Assembly (NCBI GenBank): GCA_026387795.1
Contig: JAPLLA010000019.1
Coordinates: 2,972 to 66,971 of the forward strand
Length of the DNA stretch: 64,000 nucleotides
Direction of reading: 5' to 3'
Origin: Candidatus Saganbacteria bacterium
GTDB lineage: Bacteria > Margulisbacteria > WOR-1 > JAPLLA01
Part shown: positions 18,165 to 54,165 of the stretch, piece by piece
Layout of the letters: every line of letters begins with the position of its first letter
How positions within the stretch are numbered: position 1 is the stretch's first letter
Notes under the pieces: model-generated
Told to the model about the DNA's origin: nothing
The model's input: the letters and a program-made list of their open reading frames with translations, nothing else
Database searches by the model: none
Translations under genes and position numbers: made by a program

Positions 18165-18306
18165 AAAATATTTGTTTAAAACTGAAATTTCCGGCAAAAT
18201 TGCACGATATATATATAGAAGAGAGTAGCAAACGAGCATTTGCTATATTTGTTTAAACTAAAAAACGCCTGAGCCTGTTCGGGCGTTTTTTTATGGAGGG
18301 GTAGAG

Positions 18307-19185
18307 ATGAAACCAGGACCAGTCGGCGGGCCAACCGGAAGCGGAATGACACCTGTCCAGCAAATCAATTTGCCGCAGCTTTTACGCAGAATAGTTTCTG
18401 CTTATGATTTGGAAAATTTTGCCAAAGGTGGAGAGGTGGCAGCCTCTAGAATTGCCAATATTAAAGCCGGGCTAGAGCGGTTTCCAGTGCAATTAAGAAA
18501 AACCTTTTTATTGCAACTGCCGCAAATGGCGCTGGGTGGGCTTACTAGCAGGGCCCCTCTTATTAAAGCCTTGGTTAAGACCCTGGATTTTACCGCGGAT
18601 CCTCATAGCGTAGTAGAGTTTTTTAGCGGAGGGAATTTAAGCGGCCCAATTGCTTTGTCTGATACGCAGCGATATATACAGGTTTCTGATGACCCCTTGA
18701 TTTCTGCATTGGGATTCCTGCCGGAAGAGTTTTTTTTGGAGCTAGGATTTTCTGAGTTTACCGATCGAAGCTTTTTGAAAATGGCGCCTGCGTTGCCTGC
18801 AGATGAAAGATCTCCAATTGAAAACATTATTAAACTGGCTGTTCCAAACCTAAGGTATTTGCAAGAATCAGTACAAGCATTTGCTGGCCGGCCAGCTATG
18901 GCAGGCCAGGCAGATCTTTGTTTGGCATTTTTTTGGGCTACGGATCCATTTTTAGAAATGGAAACAGTAGTGAGGCCGGGCGGATATATGGTTACGGTGG
19001 ATGTCTCTAACGCAGATCTTAAGGGAGCTGTCAAAGCAGCGCCTGGTCCGGTTCTTTCGGAATTAAAAGAAGTAAAGAGCTCTCAAGTACGGACAGACCT
19101 TATGGCTGCTATTACTAAAAAATTAAAAGAAACTCCGGGGTATAAAGAGCTCAATCTGCGCGTAGTGATTTATCAAAAACAGTAG
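18307..19185 (+). CDS. hypothetical protein
   Basis: 292-aa ORF with GGAGGGG SD; no recognisable motifs. Confidence 0.4.
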   Translation: MKPGPVGGPTGSGMTPVQQINLPQLLRRIVSAYDLENFAKGGEVAASRIANIKAGLERFPVQLRKTFLLQLPQMALGGLTSRAPLIKALVKTLDFTADPHSVVEFFSGGNLSGPIALSDTQRYIQVSDDPLISALGFLPEEFFLELGFSEFTDRSFLKMAPALPADERSPIENIIKLAVPNLRYLQESVQAFAGRPAMAGQADLCLAFFWATDPFLEMETVVRPGGYMVTVDVSNADLKGAVKAAPGPVLSELKEVKSSQVRTDLMAAITKKLKETPGYKELNLRVVIYQKQ

Positions 19186-51400: not shown

Positions 51401-54027
51401 GGTTGTGCGGCAGCAGCTCTGGCAGCTTCTTCAGCAACTCTGGCAGCTTGTCTATTTGCTTCTTCCACATCATCGATTTTATCTTTTAAAGCTTGTTCTT
51501 TTTGTTCTAAATCTTTCTGGTCAGCAATGGCTTTAGGAGTAAAGCCCGCATTGCGAAGATCAATAGCGGCAGTTAGGTCAAAAGGGTTGGTTGGATCAAG
51601 AGCCCTGTCAATAAGAGCAATCCTGTCAACAACTTCCTGGTCAGCCGCAGCTTGTGTAGCAGCGGCAGCATTGGTTCTTTCTACGTCATCGATTGTATCT
51701 TTTAGAGCTTTTTCTTTGTCTACTAGATCTTTCTTATCAGCAATATCTTTAGGAGTAAAAACGTTATTGCGAAGATCAATAGCGGCAGTTAGGTCAAAAG
51801 GGTTGGTTGGATCAAGAGCCCTGTCAATAAGAGCAATCCTGTCAACCACTTCCTGGTCAGCAGTTACCTTTTCAGCAGCGGCAGCATTGGTTCTTTCTAC
51901 TTCTGTGATTTTATCTATTAAAGCTTTTTCTTTGTCTACTAGATCTTTCTTATCAGCAACATCTTTAGGAGTAAAGATATCATCGCGGACCATTCTAGCT
52001 TCGACAAGATCAAAAGTTCTGGTAGGATTAAGGACCCAGTCAATTTCAGCAATCCTGTCAATGACTTCCTGGTCAGCCGCAGCTTGGGTAGCAGCGGCAG
52101 CATTGGTTCTTTCTACGTCATCGATTTTATCTTTTAAAGCTTGTTCTTTGTCTACTAGATCTTTCTTATCAGCGACATCTTTAGGCTTAAACCCTGAATC
52201 GCGAAGAGCAATGGCAGCACTTAGGTCAAAAGGGTTGGTTGGGTCAAGTACCCTTTCAATAATGGCAATCCTGTCAACAACTTCCTGGTCAGCAGTTGCT
52301 TTTGCTTCTGCTTTTTCGGCTGCTTTAATCTTGGGAGAGGTGTTTCGAACCGCTTCTTGAAGTGTGTTCCTCTTTGCTTTTTCTACTCCTGCGTCTTTTG
52401 CTTCACGCAGTGCATCTGTTGCAGCCCTGAATGCTGCTTGGGCATCTGCTAATCGGTCTGCCGGGATAGTTGCCATAGCATCATCTGCGAATTCTTGGAT
52501 CCCAGTAAGTGCAGCTGCCATTTTTCTTTCTGCTGCATCTTTGGGATCTTTGGCTTCGGTTAATTCTCTTATGGTTTCTGCACCAAAGATTGCGGGGTTT
52601 TCTCCTTGTGCAAGGTGTCTTTTGAATTCTTCTGCCACCGTAGGGCTGTTTGTTTCCAGAACAGCAATTAATTCGCCAAGACGTCTTTTACCCATGTTTC
52701 TGATCCGAGATTCAAAAGCATCAAGAGTGGCATCCAGAACTAAGCCAGTAGCCCTCACATCTGCTATGAGTTTGGCAGCGCGTTTGGTGATCCCGGCTAT
52801 AGTTACTTCCCCGACTTCTCCTGTAAAAAGAAGCGTTCCTGCTGCGTCTAAAGTATCAATAGCAGGGTTAATTCTAAGTGCATCTGATTCCATTTGACCT
52901 GCCAAGGTGCGCAGTGTTTCTACCCCTTCGGCTGCTGTAATTAATCTTCCAAGTCTTGCAGATGTATCTGTTAAATTCGTTTTTGATCCTTTGGTGTCAT
53001 CGTTTAAGTTGAAGTAGGCATCATTCCCGGTAAGAAAAGCATCGATTCTTTCTTTTAATTCTTTGGCTTGATCTTTTTGGGAGACCCCGTCTGTTTGATC
53101 GAGGAAAGCATCCACATCCAAAGCCTCTTCCAAAGCAGTAAAGGCTTCGATGTCATCCCAAAGTTGGTTGTTTGTCTCTCTGTCGGTGCGGAGCACCCCA
53201 TTTCTAAAAACCATTTGAAGCAATCCGTATCTTTCGGATGCTTTTTCAATTCTGTGTCCCTTTTTCCCTGTATAATAAGAGGCGCTTTCTTTTGCGCGTT
53301 CAGCAGCAATTGCTTCGAGGGCTTTTTGTCGGTCCTTGTCTAACTGTTGCGCTTCTTGTTGAATAGCACTAAGTCCCCCTCTGGCAATCCGTCCGCCACC
53401 CTTAGCGAGTAAAATAAGGACTAAAGCTATAACTGCTCCTGCAACCCCTCCTACCAACACCCCTTCTATTGCGTAGGAAGAGATGCTTTTGATTGGAACC
53501 ATGGTCATCATTTTTAAAGCTATTCCTACTACCGATCCAATTCCTCCAAAAATTAGGGCATACCTGTACTTCAATGAGTCGGTCCAGTTCCCCTCGAATT
53601 TTCTCATCAGTTCTTGTACGCGATCAAAATGTTCCTGTTGTTTGTCTGGGGCTGGCGCTTGGCCAGAACCTCCCATCCCAGTATTTCCTCCCATGGTGCC
53701 TGGGCCACCAGGTCCCCCGGTTGTAGCCATCATCATTGCGCCGTTCCATAATCTTCCGGCTGTAGCTCCCATCCATCTGCTTGCAGTTCCATAACAATTG
53801 TATTGTTCTTGCACATGAGAACCGGTTAAGCCTCCTGCAAGCGCTAAATTATATATTGGAACTGTACGGGTACGAATAGCAGGCATATAAGCGGGATTTT
53901 GGAAACCGCCTTTTATTTCAGTCCAAGCTTTTCGTGCACCTTGTTTTCCTTTTTCATATCCCTTGCGTGCATATTCTCTGGCGCCGACCCCTTGTTTACC
54001 TAGCTCTATTGGCTCTCCACCCGGCAT
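48466..54027 (-). CDS. giant Ala/Glu-rich membrane-anchored coiled-coil protein (1853 aa) with 72-aa tandem repeats
   Basis: Gly/Met-rich N-terminal region; predicted TM segment YALIFGGIGSVVGIALKMM...VLVGGVAGAVIALVLILLA; long A/E/K-rich low-complexity region; ~4.5 copies of a 72-aa unit; GGGAGG SD. Confidence 0.65.
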   Translation of the reverse strand: MPGGEPIELGKQGVGAREYARKGYEKGKQGARKAWTEIKGGFQNPAYMPAIRTRTVPIYNLALAGGLTGSHVQEQYNCYGTASRWMGATAGRLWNGAMMMATTGGPGGPGTMGGNTGMGGSGQAPAPDKQQEHFDRVQELMRKFEGNWTDSLKYRYALIFGGIGSVVGIALKMMTMVPIKSISSYAIEGVLVGGVAGAVIALVLILLAKGGGRIARGGLSAIQQEAQQLDKDRQKALEAIAAERAKESASYYTGKKGHRIEKASERYGLLQMVFRNGVLRTDRETNNQLWDDIEAFTALEEALDVDAFLDQTDGVSQKDQAKELKERIDAFLTGNDAYFNLNDDTKGSKTNLTDTSARLGRLITAAEGVETLRTLAGQMESDALRINPAIDTLDAAGTLLFTGEVGEVTIAGITKRAAKLIADVRATGLVLDATLDAFESRIRNMGKRRLGELIAVLETNSPTVAEEFKRHLAQGENPAIFGAETIRELTEAKDPKDAAERKMAAALTGIQEFADDAMATIPADRLADAQAAFRAATDALREAKDAGVEKAKRNTLQEAVRNTSPKIKAAEKAEAKATADQEVVDRIAIIERVLDPTNPFDLSAAIALRDSGFKPKDVADKKDLVDKEQALKDKIDDVERTNAAAATQAAADQEVIDRIAEIDWVLNPTRTFDLVEARMVRDDIFTPKDVADKKDLVDKEKALIDKITEVERTNAAAAEKVTADQEVVDRIALIDRALDPTNPFDLTAAIDLRNNVFTPKDIADKKDLVDKEKALKDTIDDVERTNAAAATQAAADQEVVDRIALIDRALDPTNPFDLTAAIDLRNAGFTPKAIADQKDLEQKEQALKDKIDDVEEANRQAARVAEEAARAAAAQPKPAPEDPAVTAQKEAALRLLAKMKAGRSGGTPTGFPPGLTLEASKAVLIQDIHDKQAEIQEAEEMLANSALASLHADIRSNIVKTYLALFAEEKAAQEGAQAIPVPENADTADAHDALRGASYMLELVLRHASGDIENLEAALPAAAAELGAPILSMEDLHGTCFQKAAAETSLNLYLISSMLSGAARVDGALALAFLDTLIGVSVETSPLNQKAQEAKAALTPPVPEEPETVETVEGVFIDDGVPPVSLTGTTAATPLSTAAQTLQEVVVLLQSAEAEMRAAADDFLGKRVNGAESKAAVATQKREAVEKEITEVGKRIDEEKARIEKAPDHTVAGTPAYTYLKALEAAQATVDTRRAAIAARLEEIEAGLLDVAPSSAPMTAPAGSGPAELRTWAKRLSTEASERKDRRAALEAEKSGLLGELDGLPARLESLFAEADSAYQGNLAAYTGAAGREQKTQEDLLPGKKQNLGRAKGAETHAARKVKAERDHLVATKVEASGVPIPAYAAIDIILGFLPADEAASIRNAIIGPVAIDPATISRSLSVGRRMLQDAQAGILVAADNLLGGKLRGVKERQQSTQQELEGLSRTIEEKRRDIETLNTTLETVTKPALAEELEQASRALVQELEQRTVALRGELAGLQATGDKDSEKLAGMRRRREIEREIGKIEEEIGERFTVEERRITTAKAEKEREVADRVRDLGEEIAGLEGKRPGISERQNALGPQESALDAQLRTIAQKAQEALDAFQALAAQFKGMQEAEHLASAGAQAAAATFAALAEGPGARNVTPETSGLGTGGATVVAADAVAGTGRGEGDQARHEGPAEVARVTLDRALEESGAAGTVPVTPPAREEDALRTDAGGSAVELELRRGLPRHSRPVTSFLTADEQAMLSGLGKGKKATVAATTAPAPAEQVEAPTPAAAPIATAVAEPEPVAVAAPAPLSAKDAAVAGMRNAIAASRAALKKVAGTDPANA
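51440..52340. repeat. ~216-bp tandem repeat array (about 4.5 units) inside the 1853-aa gene
   Basis: near-identical DNA units starting near 51535, 51751, 51967 and 52183; protein unit DVADKKDLVDKE.ALKDKIDDVERTNAAAA..AADQEVVDRIALIDRALDPTNPFDL.AAIDLRN..FTPK. Confidence 0.65.
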
Positions 54028-54165
54028 AAAAATTACCTCCCTGTTATTTTTCGCATATTTTGTCTTTGCCTGTCTCTCACATATATTTATCGATCATTTT
54101 AGGCTCGGATTTCACTTTGCCCCATATTTTTTTTGTGTTAAAATGAAGCTCAAAAGGGGGCATTT

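What the first reader, a model, noticed from the sequence alone, without database searches (positions are those of the whole stretch)
18205..54096. Recurrent CGATATATATAT motif upstream of five to six genes, including the giant genes
Same-orientation copies occur at 18205-18218 (upstream of the 292-aa hypothetical gene), 23858-23871 (upstream of the 537-aa repeat protein), 32691-32703 (minus strand, 17-29 nt upstream of the TPR916 ATG) and 44209-44222 (minus strand, 25-38 nt upstream of the 1968-aa giant gene). Degenerate copies are CGATATAAT at 22474-22482 (upstream of the 22497 gene) and CGATAAATATATGTG at 54079-54096 (upstream of the 1853-aa gene). In two cases it lies so close to the SD that a plain -10 role is awkward. 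It may be an extended -10 for an alternative sigma factor or a regulator site that couples expression of these genes.
Basis: seen in the sequence. Interest (0 to 1): 0.55.

Follow-up and report, generated by a model that had tools for sequence, protein, structure and literature searches.

The report
Phylum-wide alternative promoter in Saganbacteria
The repeated CGATATATATAT is the downstream half of a very strongly conserved two-part promoter (TGAAAT, 16 bases, CGATAT...) that is used across the uncultivated phylum Margulisbacteria/Saganbacteria, probably by an alternative sigma factor, to switch on giant genes, proteins of unknown function and a small RNA.

Summary
CGATATATATAT occurs 4 times, against 0 expected. 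It is part of a 34-bp bipartite element, TGAAAT(TTT)-N16-CGATA(T/A)ATATAT, then a purine. A weight matrix finds exactly 7 copies in the window (0.02 expected). All are intergenic and all point at the next gene. An eighth copy lies 7 kb upstream of the window, before a 2293-aa gene.

A scan of 185,579 species genomes found the element almost only in Saganbacteria/WOR-1/Margulisiibacteriota MAGs. The window is from a Saganbacteria MAG. In 17 metagenomic loci chosen only through a small conserved protein, all 17 carry the element upstream.

The spacing is fixed at 16 and the spacer varies. Orientation is 187:18 towards a co-directional ORF, and the median distance to the start codon is 19 nt. tRNA and housekeeping genes in the same genomes use canonical TTGACA/TGnTATAAT promoters.

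It is therefore a separate promoter class, which implies an alternative sigma factor. Its geometry and its CGATA(T/A) -10 match sigma-28 (FliA/SigD/WhiG) promoters. The -35 with T-tract also resembles ECF sigma-W promoters. No sigma gene was found and no transcription start was mapped. The downstream genes are non-flagellar, mostly unannotatable or giant, and include one conserved ~70-nt sRNA.

The parts
17369..17402 (+). Promoter copy 1 (weakest): TGAAAT 17369-17374, N16, CGATAGTAACTT 17391-17402. The ATG of the 253-aa gene follows directly at 17403, so the mRNA is predicted to be leaderless.
   Evidence: 17.8 bits
17403..18164 (+). 253-aa gene downstream of copy 1. No Pfam or NCBIfam match.
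18183..18216 (+). Promoter copy 2: TGAAAT 18183-18188, N16, CGATATATATAT 18205-18216.
   Evidence: 50.5 bits
18217..18294 (+). Predicted ~75-nt small RNA or leader transcribed from copy 2. It ends in the terminator hairpin GCCTGA-GCCTGT-TCGGGC plus a T-run (18267-18292). The 292-aa gene starts 12 nt later.
18307..19185 (+). 292-aa gene, reached by read-through of the sRNA terminator. No family match.
22452..22485 (+). Promoter copy 3: TGAAAT 22452-22457, N16, CGATATAATTGC 22474-22485. The predicted leader is GGAGGGGAAAG, then ATG at 22497.
   Evidence: 31.5 bits
22497..23798 (+). 433-aa gene with no significant family match.
23835..23868 (+). Promoter copy 4: TGCAAT 23835-23840, N16, CGATATATATAT 23857-23868. 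It is followed by a 99-nt leader with a 5' hairpin and AATGNCAAATG repeats.
   Evidence: (31.6 bits)
23968..26739 (+). 537-aa gene, an orphan whose only match in 5.8 billion proteins is itself, followed by a family-9 glycosyltransferase gene (25594-26739).
32692..32725 (-). Promoter copy 5: TGAATT 32720-32725, N16, CGATATATATAT 32692-32703 (read on the minus strand). It begins 6 nt after the leuC stop codon. A 17-nt leader, GAGGAGAGGAAGTTGCT, precedes the ATG.
   Evidence: (41.1 bits)
28484..32674 (-). 916-aa TPR gene, 129-aa gene and Omp85-like gene downstream of copy 5. They lie between leuC and leuD.
44211..44244 (-). Promoter copy 6: TGCAAT 44239-44244, N16, CGATATATATAT 44211-44222. The leader is 26 nt.
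   Evidence: 45.0 bits
38278..44184 (-). 1968-aa giant gene with a PP2C phosphatase domain and a weak, sub-threshold transglutaminase-like match.
54081..54114 (-). Promoter copy 7: TGAAAT 54109-54114, N16, CGATAAATATAT 54081-54092. The leader is 53 nt.
   Evidence: 31.9 bits
46210..54027 (-). 1853-aa giant gene and the 723-aa gene behind it. Neither has a family match.
7682..7711 (+). Contrast: a canonical housekeeping-type promoter, TTGACA-N18-TATAAT. A second one, TTGACA-N18-TATACT, lies at 10723-10752 before nrdR.

Best explanation
The motif is the -10 region plus the AT-rich stretch up to the start site of a bipartite promoter: A-rich upstream region, TGAAAT(TTT), 16 nt in total between the boxes, CGATA(T/A)ATATAT, then a purine.

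RNA polymerase carrying an alternative sigma-70-family factor, not the housekeeping sigma, binds TGAAAT with its domain 4 and CGATA with its domain 2. It melts the ATATAT stretch and starts at the purine 1-2 nt after the 12-mer. The resulting mRNAs begin with the Shine-Dalgarno sequence, for example GAGAGGGAAAGACA-AUG, or are nearly leaderless.

This promoter class is shared by the whole Margulisiibacteriota phylum (Saganbacteria/WOR-1, Marinamargulisbacteria and others). It occurs roughly once per 11 kb. It drives a large non-flagellar gene set: giant proteins, orphan proteins, Ser/Thr kinases and a PP2C phosphatase, SLH and outer-membrane proteins, a conserved pair of 62-aa and 75-aa proteins, and one conserved ~70-nt sRNA.

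The sigma factor is most likely a repurposed member of the sigma-28 (FliA/SigD/WhiG) lineage, about 45%, or otherwise an ECF-type factor, about 35%.

Shown: the motif's anatomy, its enrichment, orientation, conservation and taxonomic restriction, and its difference from canonical promoters in the same genomes. Inferred: that it is a promoter, where transcription starts, and which sigma reads it.
For: Anatomy and enrichment
- The exact 12-mer occurs 4 times against 0 expected. There are 7 weight-matrix sites against 0.02 expected, all intergenic and all facing a gene. An eighth site lies before a 2293-aa ORF on the same contig upstream of the window.
- The spacing from TGAAAT to CGATA is 16 in 159 cases and at most 5 at any other spacing. 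The spacer sequence is variable.
- Given TGAAATT, the following box is CGATA 138 times, CGAAA 10 times and AGATA 7 times out of 410. The first base after the 12-mer is a purine in 96% of sites.

Taxonomic distribution
- The pattern scan of one genome per species gave 119 or more stretches. Of these, 64 are labelled Saganbacteria, Margulisiibacteriota, WOR-1 or Marinamargulisbacteria and 44 are unlabelled MAGs with the same flanks. Nine of the 11 labelled as other taxa lack the flanks; the other two, L025 and L039, carry them and are probably mis-binned.
- The window's 537-aa protein is annotated as Candidatus Saganbacteria.

Conservation and position
- Seventeen metagenome loci chosen only by a 62-aa protein family all carry the element upstream, 13 of them with the exact 12-mer. 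Protein identity among them is only 38-61%.
- Orientation is 187 co-oriented to 18 opposed, against 1394:1431 at random. The median distance from the 12-mer to the start codon is 19 nt.

Distinct from housekeeping promoters
- tRNA genes in the same genomes have TGnTAnAAT or TTGACT-N17-TATAAT promoters. The window has TTGACA-N18-TATAAT and TTGACA-N18-TATACT.

Match to sigma-28
- In the Pseudomonas fliC promoter, GCCGATAA lies at -15 to -8 and TCTAAAG at -36 to -30 (PMC12784957). For WhiG the consensus is T(A/C)AA-N16-GCCGATAA with an invariant central CGA (PMC12871210). Placing C of CGATA at -13 puts the AAA of this motif at -33 to -31, as in the Pseudomonas promoter.
- FlgV homologues were recovered from Margulisbacteria, and that family always lies in flagellar superoperons, often next to the sigma-28 gene (PMC11607428). 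Some members of the phylum therefore probably carry the family.
Against: - No sigma-factor gene of any kind was found in the roughly 1.05 Mb of Margulisbacteria DNA I could hold. The only hit was a protein with sigma region 4 alone, in one locus.
- No transcript 5' ends were available. Assembly contig ends near the promoter are uninformative.
- The gene set contains no flagellar or chemotaxis genes. It is also much larger than typical sigma-28 or ECF regulons.
- The sigma-28 'GC' just upstream of CGATA is only weakly present: GC precedes CGA in 38 of 236 sites.
- The -35 is TGAAAT, not TAAAG. With its T-tract it is as close to Bacillus ECF promoters, tGAAACnTTTt with -10 CGTA or CGAC (PMC5758882).
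- The near-invariant ATATAT after the -10 has no counterpart in known sigma-28 or ECF promoters and is not explained.
Confidence: 0.8

Rival explanations
1. The promoter reading is the same, but the sigma factor is an ECF (group 4) factor rather than a sigma-28-type (group 3) factor.
For: Bacillus subtilis ECF promoters read tGAAACnTTTt at -35, with a T-tract next to the -35, and CGTA (sigma-W), CGAC (sigma-X) or CGTC at -10 (PMC5758882). The motif here is TGAAAT-TTT, then N13, then CGA. That is the same overall layout and T-tract, and in my recollection the same 16-nt spacing. The minor variant TGCAAT recalls sigma-M-type -35 boxes (my recollection). Envelope proteins (SLH, outer-membrane-like, Omp85-like) are among the targets.
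Against: The ECF hallmark C of 'AAC' is T in 219 or more of 236 sites. The hallmark CGT is CGA, followed by a conserved TA(T/A) as in sigma-28 -10 boxes. No autoregulated sigma/anti-sigma operon was seen downstream of any of 236 sites. A density of about one site per 11 kb is far beyond usual ECF regulons.
Confidence: 0.3
2. These are unusually strong promoters for the housekeeping sigma, with -35 (T)TGAAA and a -10 within GATATA/TATATA, perhaps helped by an activator.
For: TGAAA resembles TTGACA, and CGATATATATAT contains TATATA. T at -16 and G at -15 in the spacer look like an extended -10 TG. The element is very frequent.
Against: Weaker copies keep CGATA but lose any TATAAT-like hexamer, for example CGATAAGCATTT, CGATACATAGAC and CGATAAACCACT. 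C and G of CGA are 94-99% conserved, which the housekeeping sigma does not require. With -35 at TGAAA, a TATATA hexamer would need a 20-nt spacer. tRNA and housekeeping genes in the same genomes use ordinary TGnTAnAAT or TTGACA-N17/18-TATAAT promoters and never this element. No ribosomal or other core genes are visible among 100 downstream proteins (only the top 25 of 42 families are listed).
Confidence: 0.07
3. The element is the binding site of a transcription regulator (repressor or activator) rather than a core promoter.
For: High sequence conservation is also typical of operators.
Against: There is no dyad or direct-repeat symmetry. Two different boxes sit at a sigma-type 16-nt spacing with a variable spacer. 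Orientation towards the gene is strict. With leaders of only 10-26 nt there is no room for a separate promoter downstream, and no canonical promoter lies upstream.
Confidence: 0.04
4. The element is a dispersed repeat or mobile-element end, or a chance AT-rich low-complexity match.
For: (AT)n runs are common. Short-read assemblies break near it.
Against: Zero copies are expected by chance. Only the two boxes are conserved, not the spacer or the flanks. The element is conserved upstream of orthologous genes in 17 of 17 independent loci. Matches in phage contigs (8 stretches) and in 9 of the 11 matches labelled as other taxa lack the flanking features and look like chance.
Confidence: 0.01

Closest known systems
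Sigma-28 (FliA / SigD / WhiG) dependent promoters, for example TAAAGTTT-N11-GCCGATAA in E. coli and TAAA-N15-GCCGATAT in B. subtilis (both from my recollection); Pseudomonas fliC TCTAAAG...GCCGATAA (PMC12784957); WhiG T(A/C)AA-N16-GCCGATAA (PMC12871210)
   Same: The core -10 is identical, CGATA(A/T), with a nearly invariant CGA. The register is the same: AAA at -33 to -31 when CGA is at -13 to -11. A T-rich stretch follows the -35. The sites have high information content and are stringent. The predicted start lies about 7 nt after the -10. There are precedents for non-flagellar use of this family: Streptomyces WhiG (PMC12871210) and Chlamydia late genes (PMC12282069, abstract).
   Different: The -35 reads TGAAAT rather than (C)TAAAG. 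The 'GC' extended -10 is weak. A further ATATAT is almost invariant between the -10 and the start. The gene set has no flagellar genes and is roughly an order of magnitude larger. No FliA-family gene has yet been shown in these genomes.
Bacillus subtilis ECF sigma promoters (sigma-W, X, M, V): tGAAACnTTTt at -35, then CGTA, CGAC or CGTC at -10 (PMC5758882); the N16 spacing for sigma-W is from my recollection
   Same: TGAAA at -35, a T-tract next to the -35, a -10 that begins with CG, and envelope proteins among the targets.
   Different: The hallmark AAC is AAT and CGT is CGA. The -10 conservation extends over TA(T/A) and a further six bases. No autoregulated sigma/anti-sigma operon was found.
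Cyanobacterial group-3 SigF promoters (Synechocystis pilA1: TAGGC at -32, GGTAA at -12; PMC2532724)
   Same: It is a stringent, unusual promoter class of a group-3 sigma in the sister lineage, and it controls surface-related genes.
   Different: The sequences are unrelated: TAGGC/GGTAA against TGAAAT/CGATAT.

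Membership tests
Sigma-28 (FliA/SigD/WhiG) promoter class | Core -10 CGATAA/CGATAT with a near-invariant central CGA | tested here: met
   CGATAT 161 and CGATAA 37 of 236 sites. C is 94%, G 99% and A 100% conserved. Given only TGAATT at -35, CGATA follows in 138 of 410 cases, and the next most frequent boxes are CGAAA and AGATA.
Sigma-28 (FliA/SigD/WhiG) promoter class | -35 TAAA(G) placed 15-16 nt upstream of GCCGATAA | tested here: inconclusive
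   The register matches: AAA falls at -33 to -31 and the spacing is fixed. However, the box reads TGAAAT, with G where WhiG has A or C, and T where E. coli and Pseudomonas have G.
Sigma-28 (FliA/SigD/WhiG) promoter class | 'GC' extended -10 immediately upstream of CGATAA | tested here: not met
   GC precedes CGA in only 38 of 236 sites. GT (43), AA (34) and GA (30) are as common. Only the G at -15 is favoured, at 49%.
Sigma-28 (FliA/SigD/WhiG) promoter class | Targets are late flagellar or chemotaxis genes (with known exceptions: WhiG, Chlamydia) | tested here: not met
   No flagellar family appears among the 25 listed (of 42) Pfam families hit by 100 downstream proteins.
Sigma-28 (FliA/SigD/WhiG) promoter class | A FliA/WhiG-family sigma gene in the same genome | not testable with these tools
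   No sigma gene was found in the 1.05 Mb held. Whole genomes could not be fetched. The only support is indirect, from the FlgV paper.
ECF (group 4) sigma promoter class | -35 containing the conserved AAC | tested here: not met
   AAT in 228 or more of 236 sites, and AAC in 1.
ECF (group 4) sigma promoter class | -10 beginning with CGT (CGTA or CGTC); sigma-X uses CGAC | tested here: not met
   CGA in about 98% of sites and CGT in 1 of 236. The box is followed by TA(T/A), not C.
ECF (group 4) sigma promoter class | T-tract next to the -35, and a roughly 16-nt spacer | tested here: met
   T is 88%, 79% and 59% at the three positions after TGAAAT. The spacing is 16 in 159 cases and at most 5 at any other value (PMC5758882).
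ECF (group 4) sigma promoter class | Autoregulated sigma/anti-sigma operon behind one of the promoters | tested here: not met
   None was found downstream of any site in the held DNA. This does not exclude one elsewhere in the genomes.
Housekeeping sigma-70 promoters | -10 TATAAT with conserved A(-11) and T(-7), and -35 TTGACA at 17±1 | tested here: not met
   Weaker copies retain CGATA but have no TATAAT-like hexamer. Canonical promoters are used at tRNA and housekeeping genes of the same genomes.
Cyanobacterial SigF promoters | TAGGC at -32 and GGTAA at -12 | tested here: not met
   The sequences are unrelated (PMC2532724).

The most novel reading that the evidence does not exclude
Margulisbacteria/Saganbacteria split their genome between two transcription programmes. 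A canonical sigma-70 programme serves core functions. A second, phylum-specific programme is read by a repurposed sigma-28-like factor through an almost invariant 34-bp promoter. This second programme drives a rapidly evolving arsenal of giant and orphan proteins carrying kinase, PP2C phosphatase, transglutaminase, LRR and TPR domains, together with a dedicated sRNA. That would be a developmental or host/partner-interaction switch analogous to Chlamydia late genes. The unexplained invariant ATATAT between the -10 and the start site would then reflect a new sigma or RNA polymerase contact.
Probability: 0.25. Interest if true: 0.75.

Novelty: new variant of a known kind. Interest (0 to 1): 0.6.

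Why it matters
Nothing is known about gene regulation in Margulisbacteria/Saganbacteria, the uncultivated sister lineage of Cyanobacteria. I found no paper that mentions this motif or sigma factors of the phylum.

A 34-bp element this sharp has several uses:
- The regulon can be read directly from any MAG. That gives a first functional grouping for hundreds of giant and orphan genes that have no annotation.
- It marks contigs of this phylum. Two contigs binned as Bathyarchaeota and Parcubacteria carry it and are probably mis-binned.
- It supplies a ready-made strong promoter and a predicted orthogonal sigma-promoter pair.
- It makes specific predictions testable: a transcription start 1-2 nt after the 12-mer, one conserved alternative sigma, and an sRNA under the same control.

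If the sigma belongs to the sigma-28 family, this would be another, and the largest, case of that flagellar factor being reused for something else.

Tried and rejected
- Rfam. There was nothing at gathering score in the window, and only generic terminator-like sub-threshold hits on the sRNA region. Eight sRNA-bearing loci gave no hit.
- Sigma factor search in held DNA. There was nothing in the Margulisbacteria loci. The only hits were an ECF gene in an unrelated Terasakiella contig and a region-4-only ORF, L067:546-929. A homology search with that ORF returned only itself.
- Flagellin search. Nothing was found.
- Phage contigs. There were 8 pattern matches, none with the flanking features, so they are chance.
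- Using assembly contig ends as proxies for transcript ends. The contigs break 112-157 nt upstream of the 292-aa gene, inside or near the promoter, which looks like repeat-induced assembly breaks rather than transcription starts.
- PDB profile searches with the two small conserved regulon proteins. There were no significant matches.
- Literature. Nothing was found on flagella, sigma factors or promoters in the main Margulisbacteria/Saganbacteria genome paper. The motif string occurs only in unrelated papers.
- Extending the window. The last gene was not on record. The first gene gave 10 kb more.
- Rejected ideas. An archaeal-type TATA box would put the start inside the coding regions. Sigma-54, sigma-32, SigB/F/G and SigH consensus sequences do not fit (my recollection of those sequences). 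A phage-type single-subunit polymerase promoter does not fit either, because the element is bipartite with a variable spacer.

Full report
**1. The observation**

CGATATATATAT occurs exactly four times in the window: 18205-18216(+), 23857-23868(+), 32692-32703(-) and 44211-44222(-). It occurred in none of 100 dinucleotide-preserving shuffles.

**2. The motif is larger than reported**

Aligning the flanks shows that every copy has TGAAAT, TGCAAT or TGAATT exactly 16 nt upstream of the C of CGATA. A seventh, weaker copy lies at 17369-17402: TGAAAT-N16-CGATAGTAACTT, followed directly by the ATG of the 253-aa gene.

A weight matrix built from related genomes finds exactly these seven sites above 12 bits in the window (17.8-50.5 bits). 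Markov shuffles give 0.02 such sites. All seven lie in the 3.4 kb (5.3%) of the window that is intergenic in my gene model, and each faces the neighbouring gene.

A Logan contig that extends the window upstream carries an eighth copy, AGAAAT-N16-CGATATATATAT, directly before a 2293-aa ORF with no Pfam domain. Thus all three giant genes of this region (1853, 1968 and 2293 aa) have the element.

**3. Where else it occurs**

I scanned one genome for each of 185,579 species with TGMAAT-N16-CGATATATATAT.
- 64 stretches are labelled Candidatus Saganbacteria, Margulisiibacteriota, candidate division WOR-1 or Marinamargulisbacteria.
- 44 are unlabelled 'uncultured bacterium' MAGs.
- 11 carry other labels.

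The Margulisbacteria and unlabelled copies share features that the search pattern did not demand. These are an A-rich stretch ending in AAAG before the -35, TTT after TGAAAT, AAA in mid-spacer, and a purine-rich RGRAGGG after the 12-mer. Nine of the 11 'other' copies lack these features. The two exceptions, labelled Bathyarchaeota and Parcubacteria, have them and are probably mis-binned contigs. Eight matches in phage contigs also lack them.

The window itself comes from a Saganbacteria MAG. Its 537-aa protein matches only itself among 5.8 billion proteins and is named 'NT099_02520 [Candidatus Saganbacteria bacterium]'. The window shares only 64-72% nucleotide identity with the fetched loci from species representatives.

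**4. Evidence of selection on the two boxes**

In 780 kb of Margulisbacteria loci, the distance from TGAAAT to CGATA is 16 in 159 cases and at most 5 at any other value. Besides the 110 copies selected by the pattern, the same loci hold 55 more TGMAAT-N16-CGATA sites. Their downstream parts differ (CGATAAATA..., CGATAAGCATTT, CGATACATAGAC) but they keep the flanking features. Given only TGAAATT, the box 16 nt later is CGATA in 138 of 410 cases. The next most frequent are CGAAA (10), AGATA (7) and CGAGA (4).

An independent test gave the same answer. I searched JGI metagenomes with a 62-aa protein family that often lies behind the element. This returned 17 loci selected by protein alone, at 38-61% identity. 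All 17 carry TGAAAT-N16-CGATA... immediately upstream. Thirteen have the exact 12-mer, and most have the same leader, GAGAGGGAAAGACA-ATG. After discounting near-duplicate loci, about a dozen further sites lie in the remaining ~183 kb of those loci, about one per 11-15 kb.

**5. Promoter-like placement**

Across 1.05 Mb I found 236 sites. An ORF on the same strand covers the point 150 nt downstream in 187 cases, and an ORF on the opposite strand in 18. At random positions the ratio is 1394:1431.

The distance from the end of the 12-mer to the start codon has a median of 19 nt (quartiles 13 and 48). Nineteen of 120 cases have an ATG within 0-9 nt. In 11 cases a terminator follows instead of a gene. 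The base after the 12-mer is a purine in 96% of sites.

**6. It is not the housekeeping promoter**

tRNA genes in the same loci are preceded by TGCTATAAT, TGATAGAAT, TGTTATAAT or TTGACT-N17-TATAAT. In the window:
- the gene at 7719 has TTGACA-N18-TATAAT;
- nrdR has TTGACA-N18-TATACT;
- the gene at 54166 has TGTTAAAAT;
- the sugar-binding-protein gene at the window's start has TTGACT-N17-TATAAT.

No ribosomal or other core family is visible among 100 proteins downstream of the element. The visible hits were Pkinase 5, SLH 4, TPR 3, FGE-sulfatase 2, radical SAM 2, and single GH16, GGDEF, LRR, DUF58 and transglutaminase. At least half have no Pfam hit. Of ten window targets, seven have no Pfam or NCBIfam match.

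**7. Mechanism**

The simplest reading is a promoter for an alternative sigma-70-family factor. TGAAAT(TTT) is the -35 and CGATA(T/A) is the -10. ATATAT is the region melted up to a purine start 1-2 nt after the 12-mer.

For TPR916 the predicted mRNA begins GAGGAGAGGAAGUUGCU-AUG. For the gene at 22497 it begins GGAGGGGAAAG-AUG. The 253-aa gene would be leaderless.

**8. Which sigma**

Sigma-28 promoters have GCCGATAA at -15 to -8 and TCTAAAG at -36 to -30 in Pseudomonas fliC (PMC12784957). For WhiG they read T(A/C)AA-N16-GCCGATAA, with the central CGA most conserved (PMC12871210). With C of CGATA at -13, the AAA of this motif falls at -33 to -31 and TGAA falls where WhiG has T(A/C)AA. The core -10 is identical. 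From memory, the B. subtilis SigD consensus is TAAA-N15-GCCGATAT and the E. coli consensus is TAAAGTTT-N11-GCCGATAA. The latter aligns with GAAATTTT-N11-nnCGATAT in the same register.

Several points count against membership. The GC before CGA is weak, at 38 of 236. The -35 has G and T where sigma-28 boxes have A/C and G. The targets are not flagellar.

The -35 with its T-tract is at least as close to Bacillus ECF promoters, tGAAACnTTTt with -10 CGTA, CGAC or CGTC (PMC5758882). But the ECF hallmarks AAC and CGT are AAT and CGA here. Cyanobacterial SigF promoters (TAGGC/GGTAA; PMC2532724) are unrelated.

I could not find any sigma gene in the DNA available, so the identity remains inferred. FlgV homologues, which always lie in flagellar superoperons and often next to the sigma-28 gene, were reported from Margulisbacteria (PMC11607428). 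The family is therefore plausibly present in the phylum. My estimate is sigma-28-like 45%, ECF-like 35%, other 20%.

**9. The copy at 18205 drives a small RNA**

Between the 12-mer and the 292-aa gene lies a hairpin plus T-run (18267-18292). Ten other genomes have the exact promoter followed by a 63-74-nt sequence that ends in the same hairpin.

In the alignment, 7 of the 10 stem pairs show compensatory changes, while the six-base loop GCCUGU is invariant. A covariance model finds only these 11 copies in 794 kb, at most one per locus. Rfam has no match. Most members carry a CU-rich segment (CAUACCUUUCAC) that could pair with the purine-rich 5' ends of regulon mRNAs. That pairing is speculation.

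**10. Novelty and verdict**

The element is a promoter of a known general kind, an alternative sigma with a sigma-28/ECF-like layout. Four things appear to be undescribed:
- its sequence;
- the near-invariant ATATAT extension;
- its restriction to one uncultivated phylum;
- its density and its cargo of giant and orphan genes plus an sRNA.

I found no paper that mentions it. I rate it a new variant of a known kind, with interest 0.6. The main gaps are experimental start-site mapping and identification of the sigma factor.

Noticed in passing
window 18217-18294 (+); also L005:1216-1284, L012:4612-4677, L023:7361-7429, L027:4337-4403(-), L042:2470-2543(-), L055:5832-5895(-), L064:1571-1636, L065:2339-2404(-), L082:1637-1704, L112:2158-2220: A conserved ~65-78-nt small RNA, always directly behind an exact copy of the promoter. 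The terminator stem covaries (7 of 10 pairs) and the loop GCCUGU is invariant. Most members have a CU-rich segment, CAUACCUUUCAC. There is no Rfam family. In the window it sits 12 nt before the 292-aa gene, so it may also act as an attenuator.
   Followed up: partly
window 23869-23967 (+); L013, L054, L077, L085, L088, L099, L110, L011 leaders: Several leaders made from this promoter contain 3-5 tandem short repeats, for example (G/A)AUAUCAGA x4, AUCAGGG x3 and AAGGUUUAAAGG. In the window the repeats are AAUGACAAAUGUCCAAUGUCAAAUGACAAAUG after a 5' hairpin. They look like repeated binding sites for an RNA-binding protein or decoy SD sequences, and they precede unrelated genes.
   Followed up: partly
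L053:2576-3003(-), L029:6361-6779, L070:6742-7166, L102:198-616, L120:3256-3691(-), and L135-L151: A conserved two-gene operon of a 61-65-aa protein (YDVASISQPGKxKR...QFVKVFADMFLKKE) and a 72-80-aa protein (...TLFTxFPxTGAPNxSD...). It lies next to NAD kinase and a Ser/Thr kinase gene, and it is always under the promoter. There are no Pfam or PDB matches, and its function is unknown.
   Followed up: partly
window 32731-33934 (-) and 26717-28302 (-): leuC is split into two overlapping reading frames. Aconitase profile positions 1-295 lie in 33089-33934 and positions 343-463 in 32731-33156. This is either a frameshift or an assembly error. The promoter-driven block of TPR916, a 129-aa gene and an Omp85-like gene is inserted between leuC and leuD-leuB.
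   Followed up: partly
window 23968-25581 (+): The 537-aa protein has no relative other than itself among 5.8 billion proteins. The NCBI name of that record identifies the source as a Candidatus Saganbacteria MAG (locus tag NT099_02520, contig 67,678 bp).
   Followed up: yes
window 37024-37053, 37078-37107, 46088-46117, 46145-46174, 58809-58838: Five copies of a 30-nt palindromic element, GGAAACC-N16-GGTTTCC, in two sequence types. They occur in pairs, two of them inside the 5' part of the ORF 36979-37959. They resemble REP-like hairpin repeats.
   Followed up: no
window 7719-8962 (+): An RsbW-like HATPase_c_2 protein (320 aa) is followed by a STAS-like DUF4325 protein (94 aa), under a canonical promoter. 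Together with the PP2C domain in the 1968-aa giant protein, this hints at partner-switching control, which in other bacteria regulates alternative sigma factors.
   Followed up: no
L067:129-929 (+): In one Saganbacteria MAG the promoter drives a 94-aa protein followed by a protein of about 111-128 aa that has only sigma-70 region 4 (Pfam E=2e-12). It has no homologue other than itself in the protein collection.
   Followed up: partly
L025 (JBDRNN010000165.1, labelled Bathyarchaeota) and L039 (JBDRPV010000104.1, labelled Parcubacteria): Both contigs carry the full Margulisbacteria-type promoter with all its flanking features. They are probably mis-binned contigs, so the motif could serve as a taxonomic marker.
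   Followed up: no
L154-L156 (Logan contigs covering window ~18150-18195 onward): Several independent short-read assemblies break 112-157 nt upstream of the 292-aa gene, within or just before the promoter. This fits a repeated promoter sequence fragmenting the assemblies.
   Followed up: no
window 10076-10231: A 156-nt intergenic region is built from GTTGTGGG repeats on one side and CCCACAAC repeats on the other, forming a long imperfect inverted repeat between divergent genes.
   Followed up: no
window 11236-15367 (+) and 55281-55925 (+): There are two adjacent anaerobic ribonucleotide reductase (NrdD) paralogues behind nrdR, and a fragment of an IS200-like Y1 transposase next to a secretin gene.
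   Followed up: no
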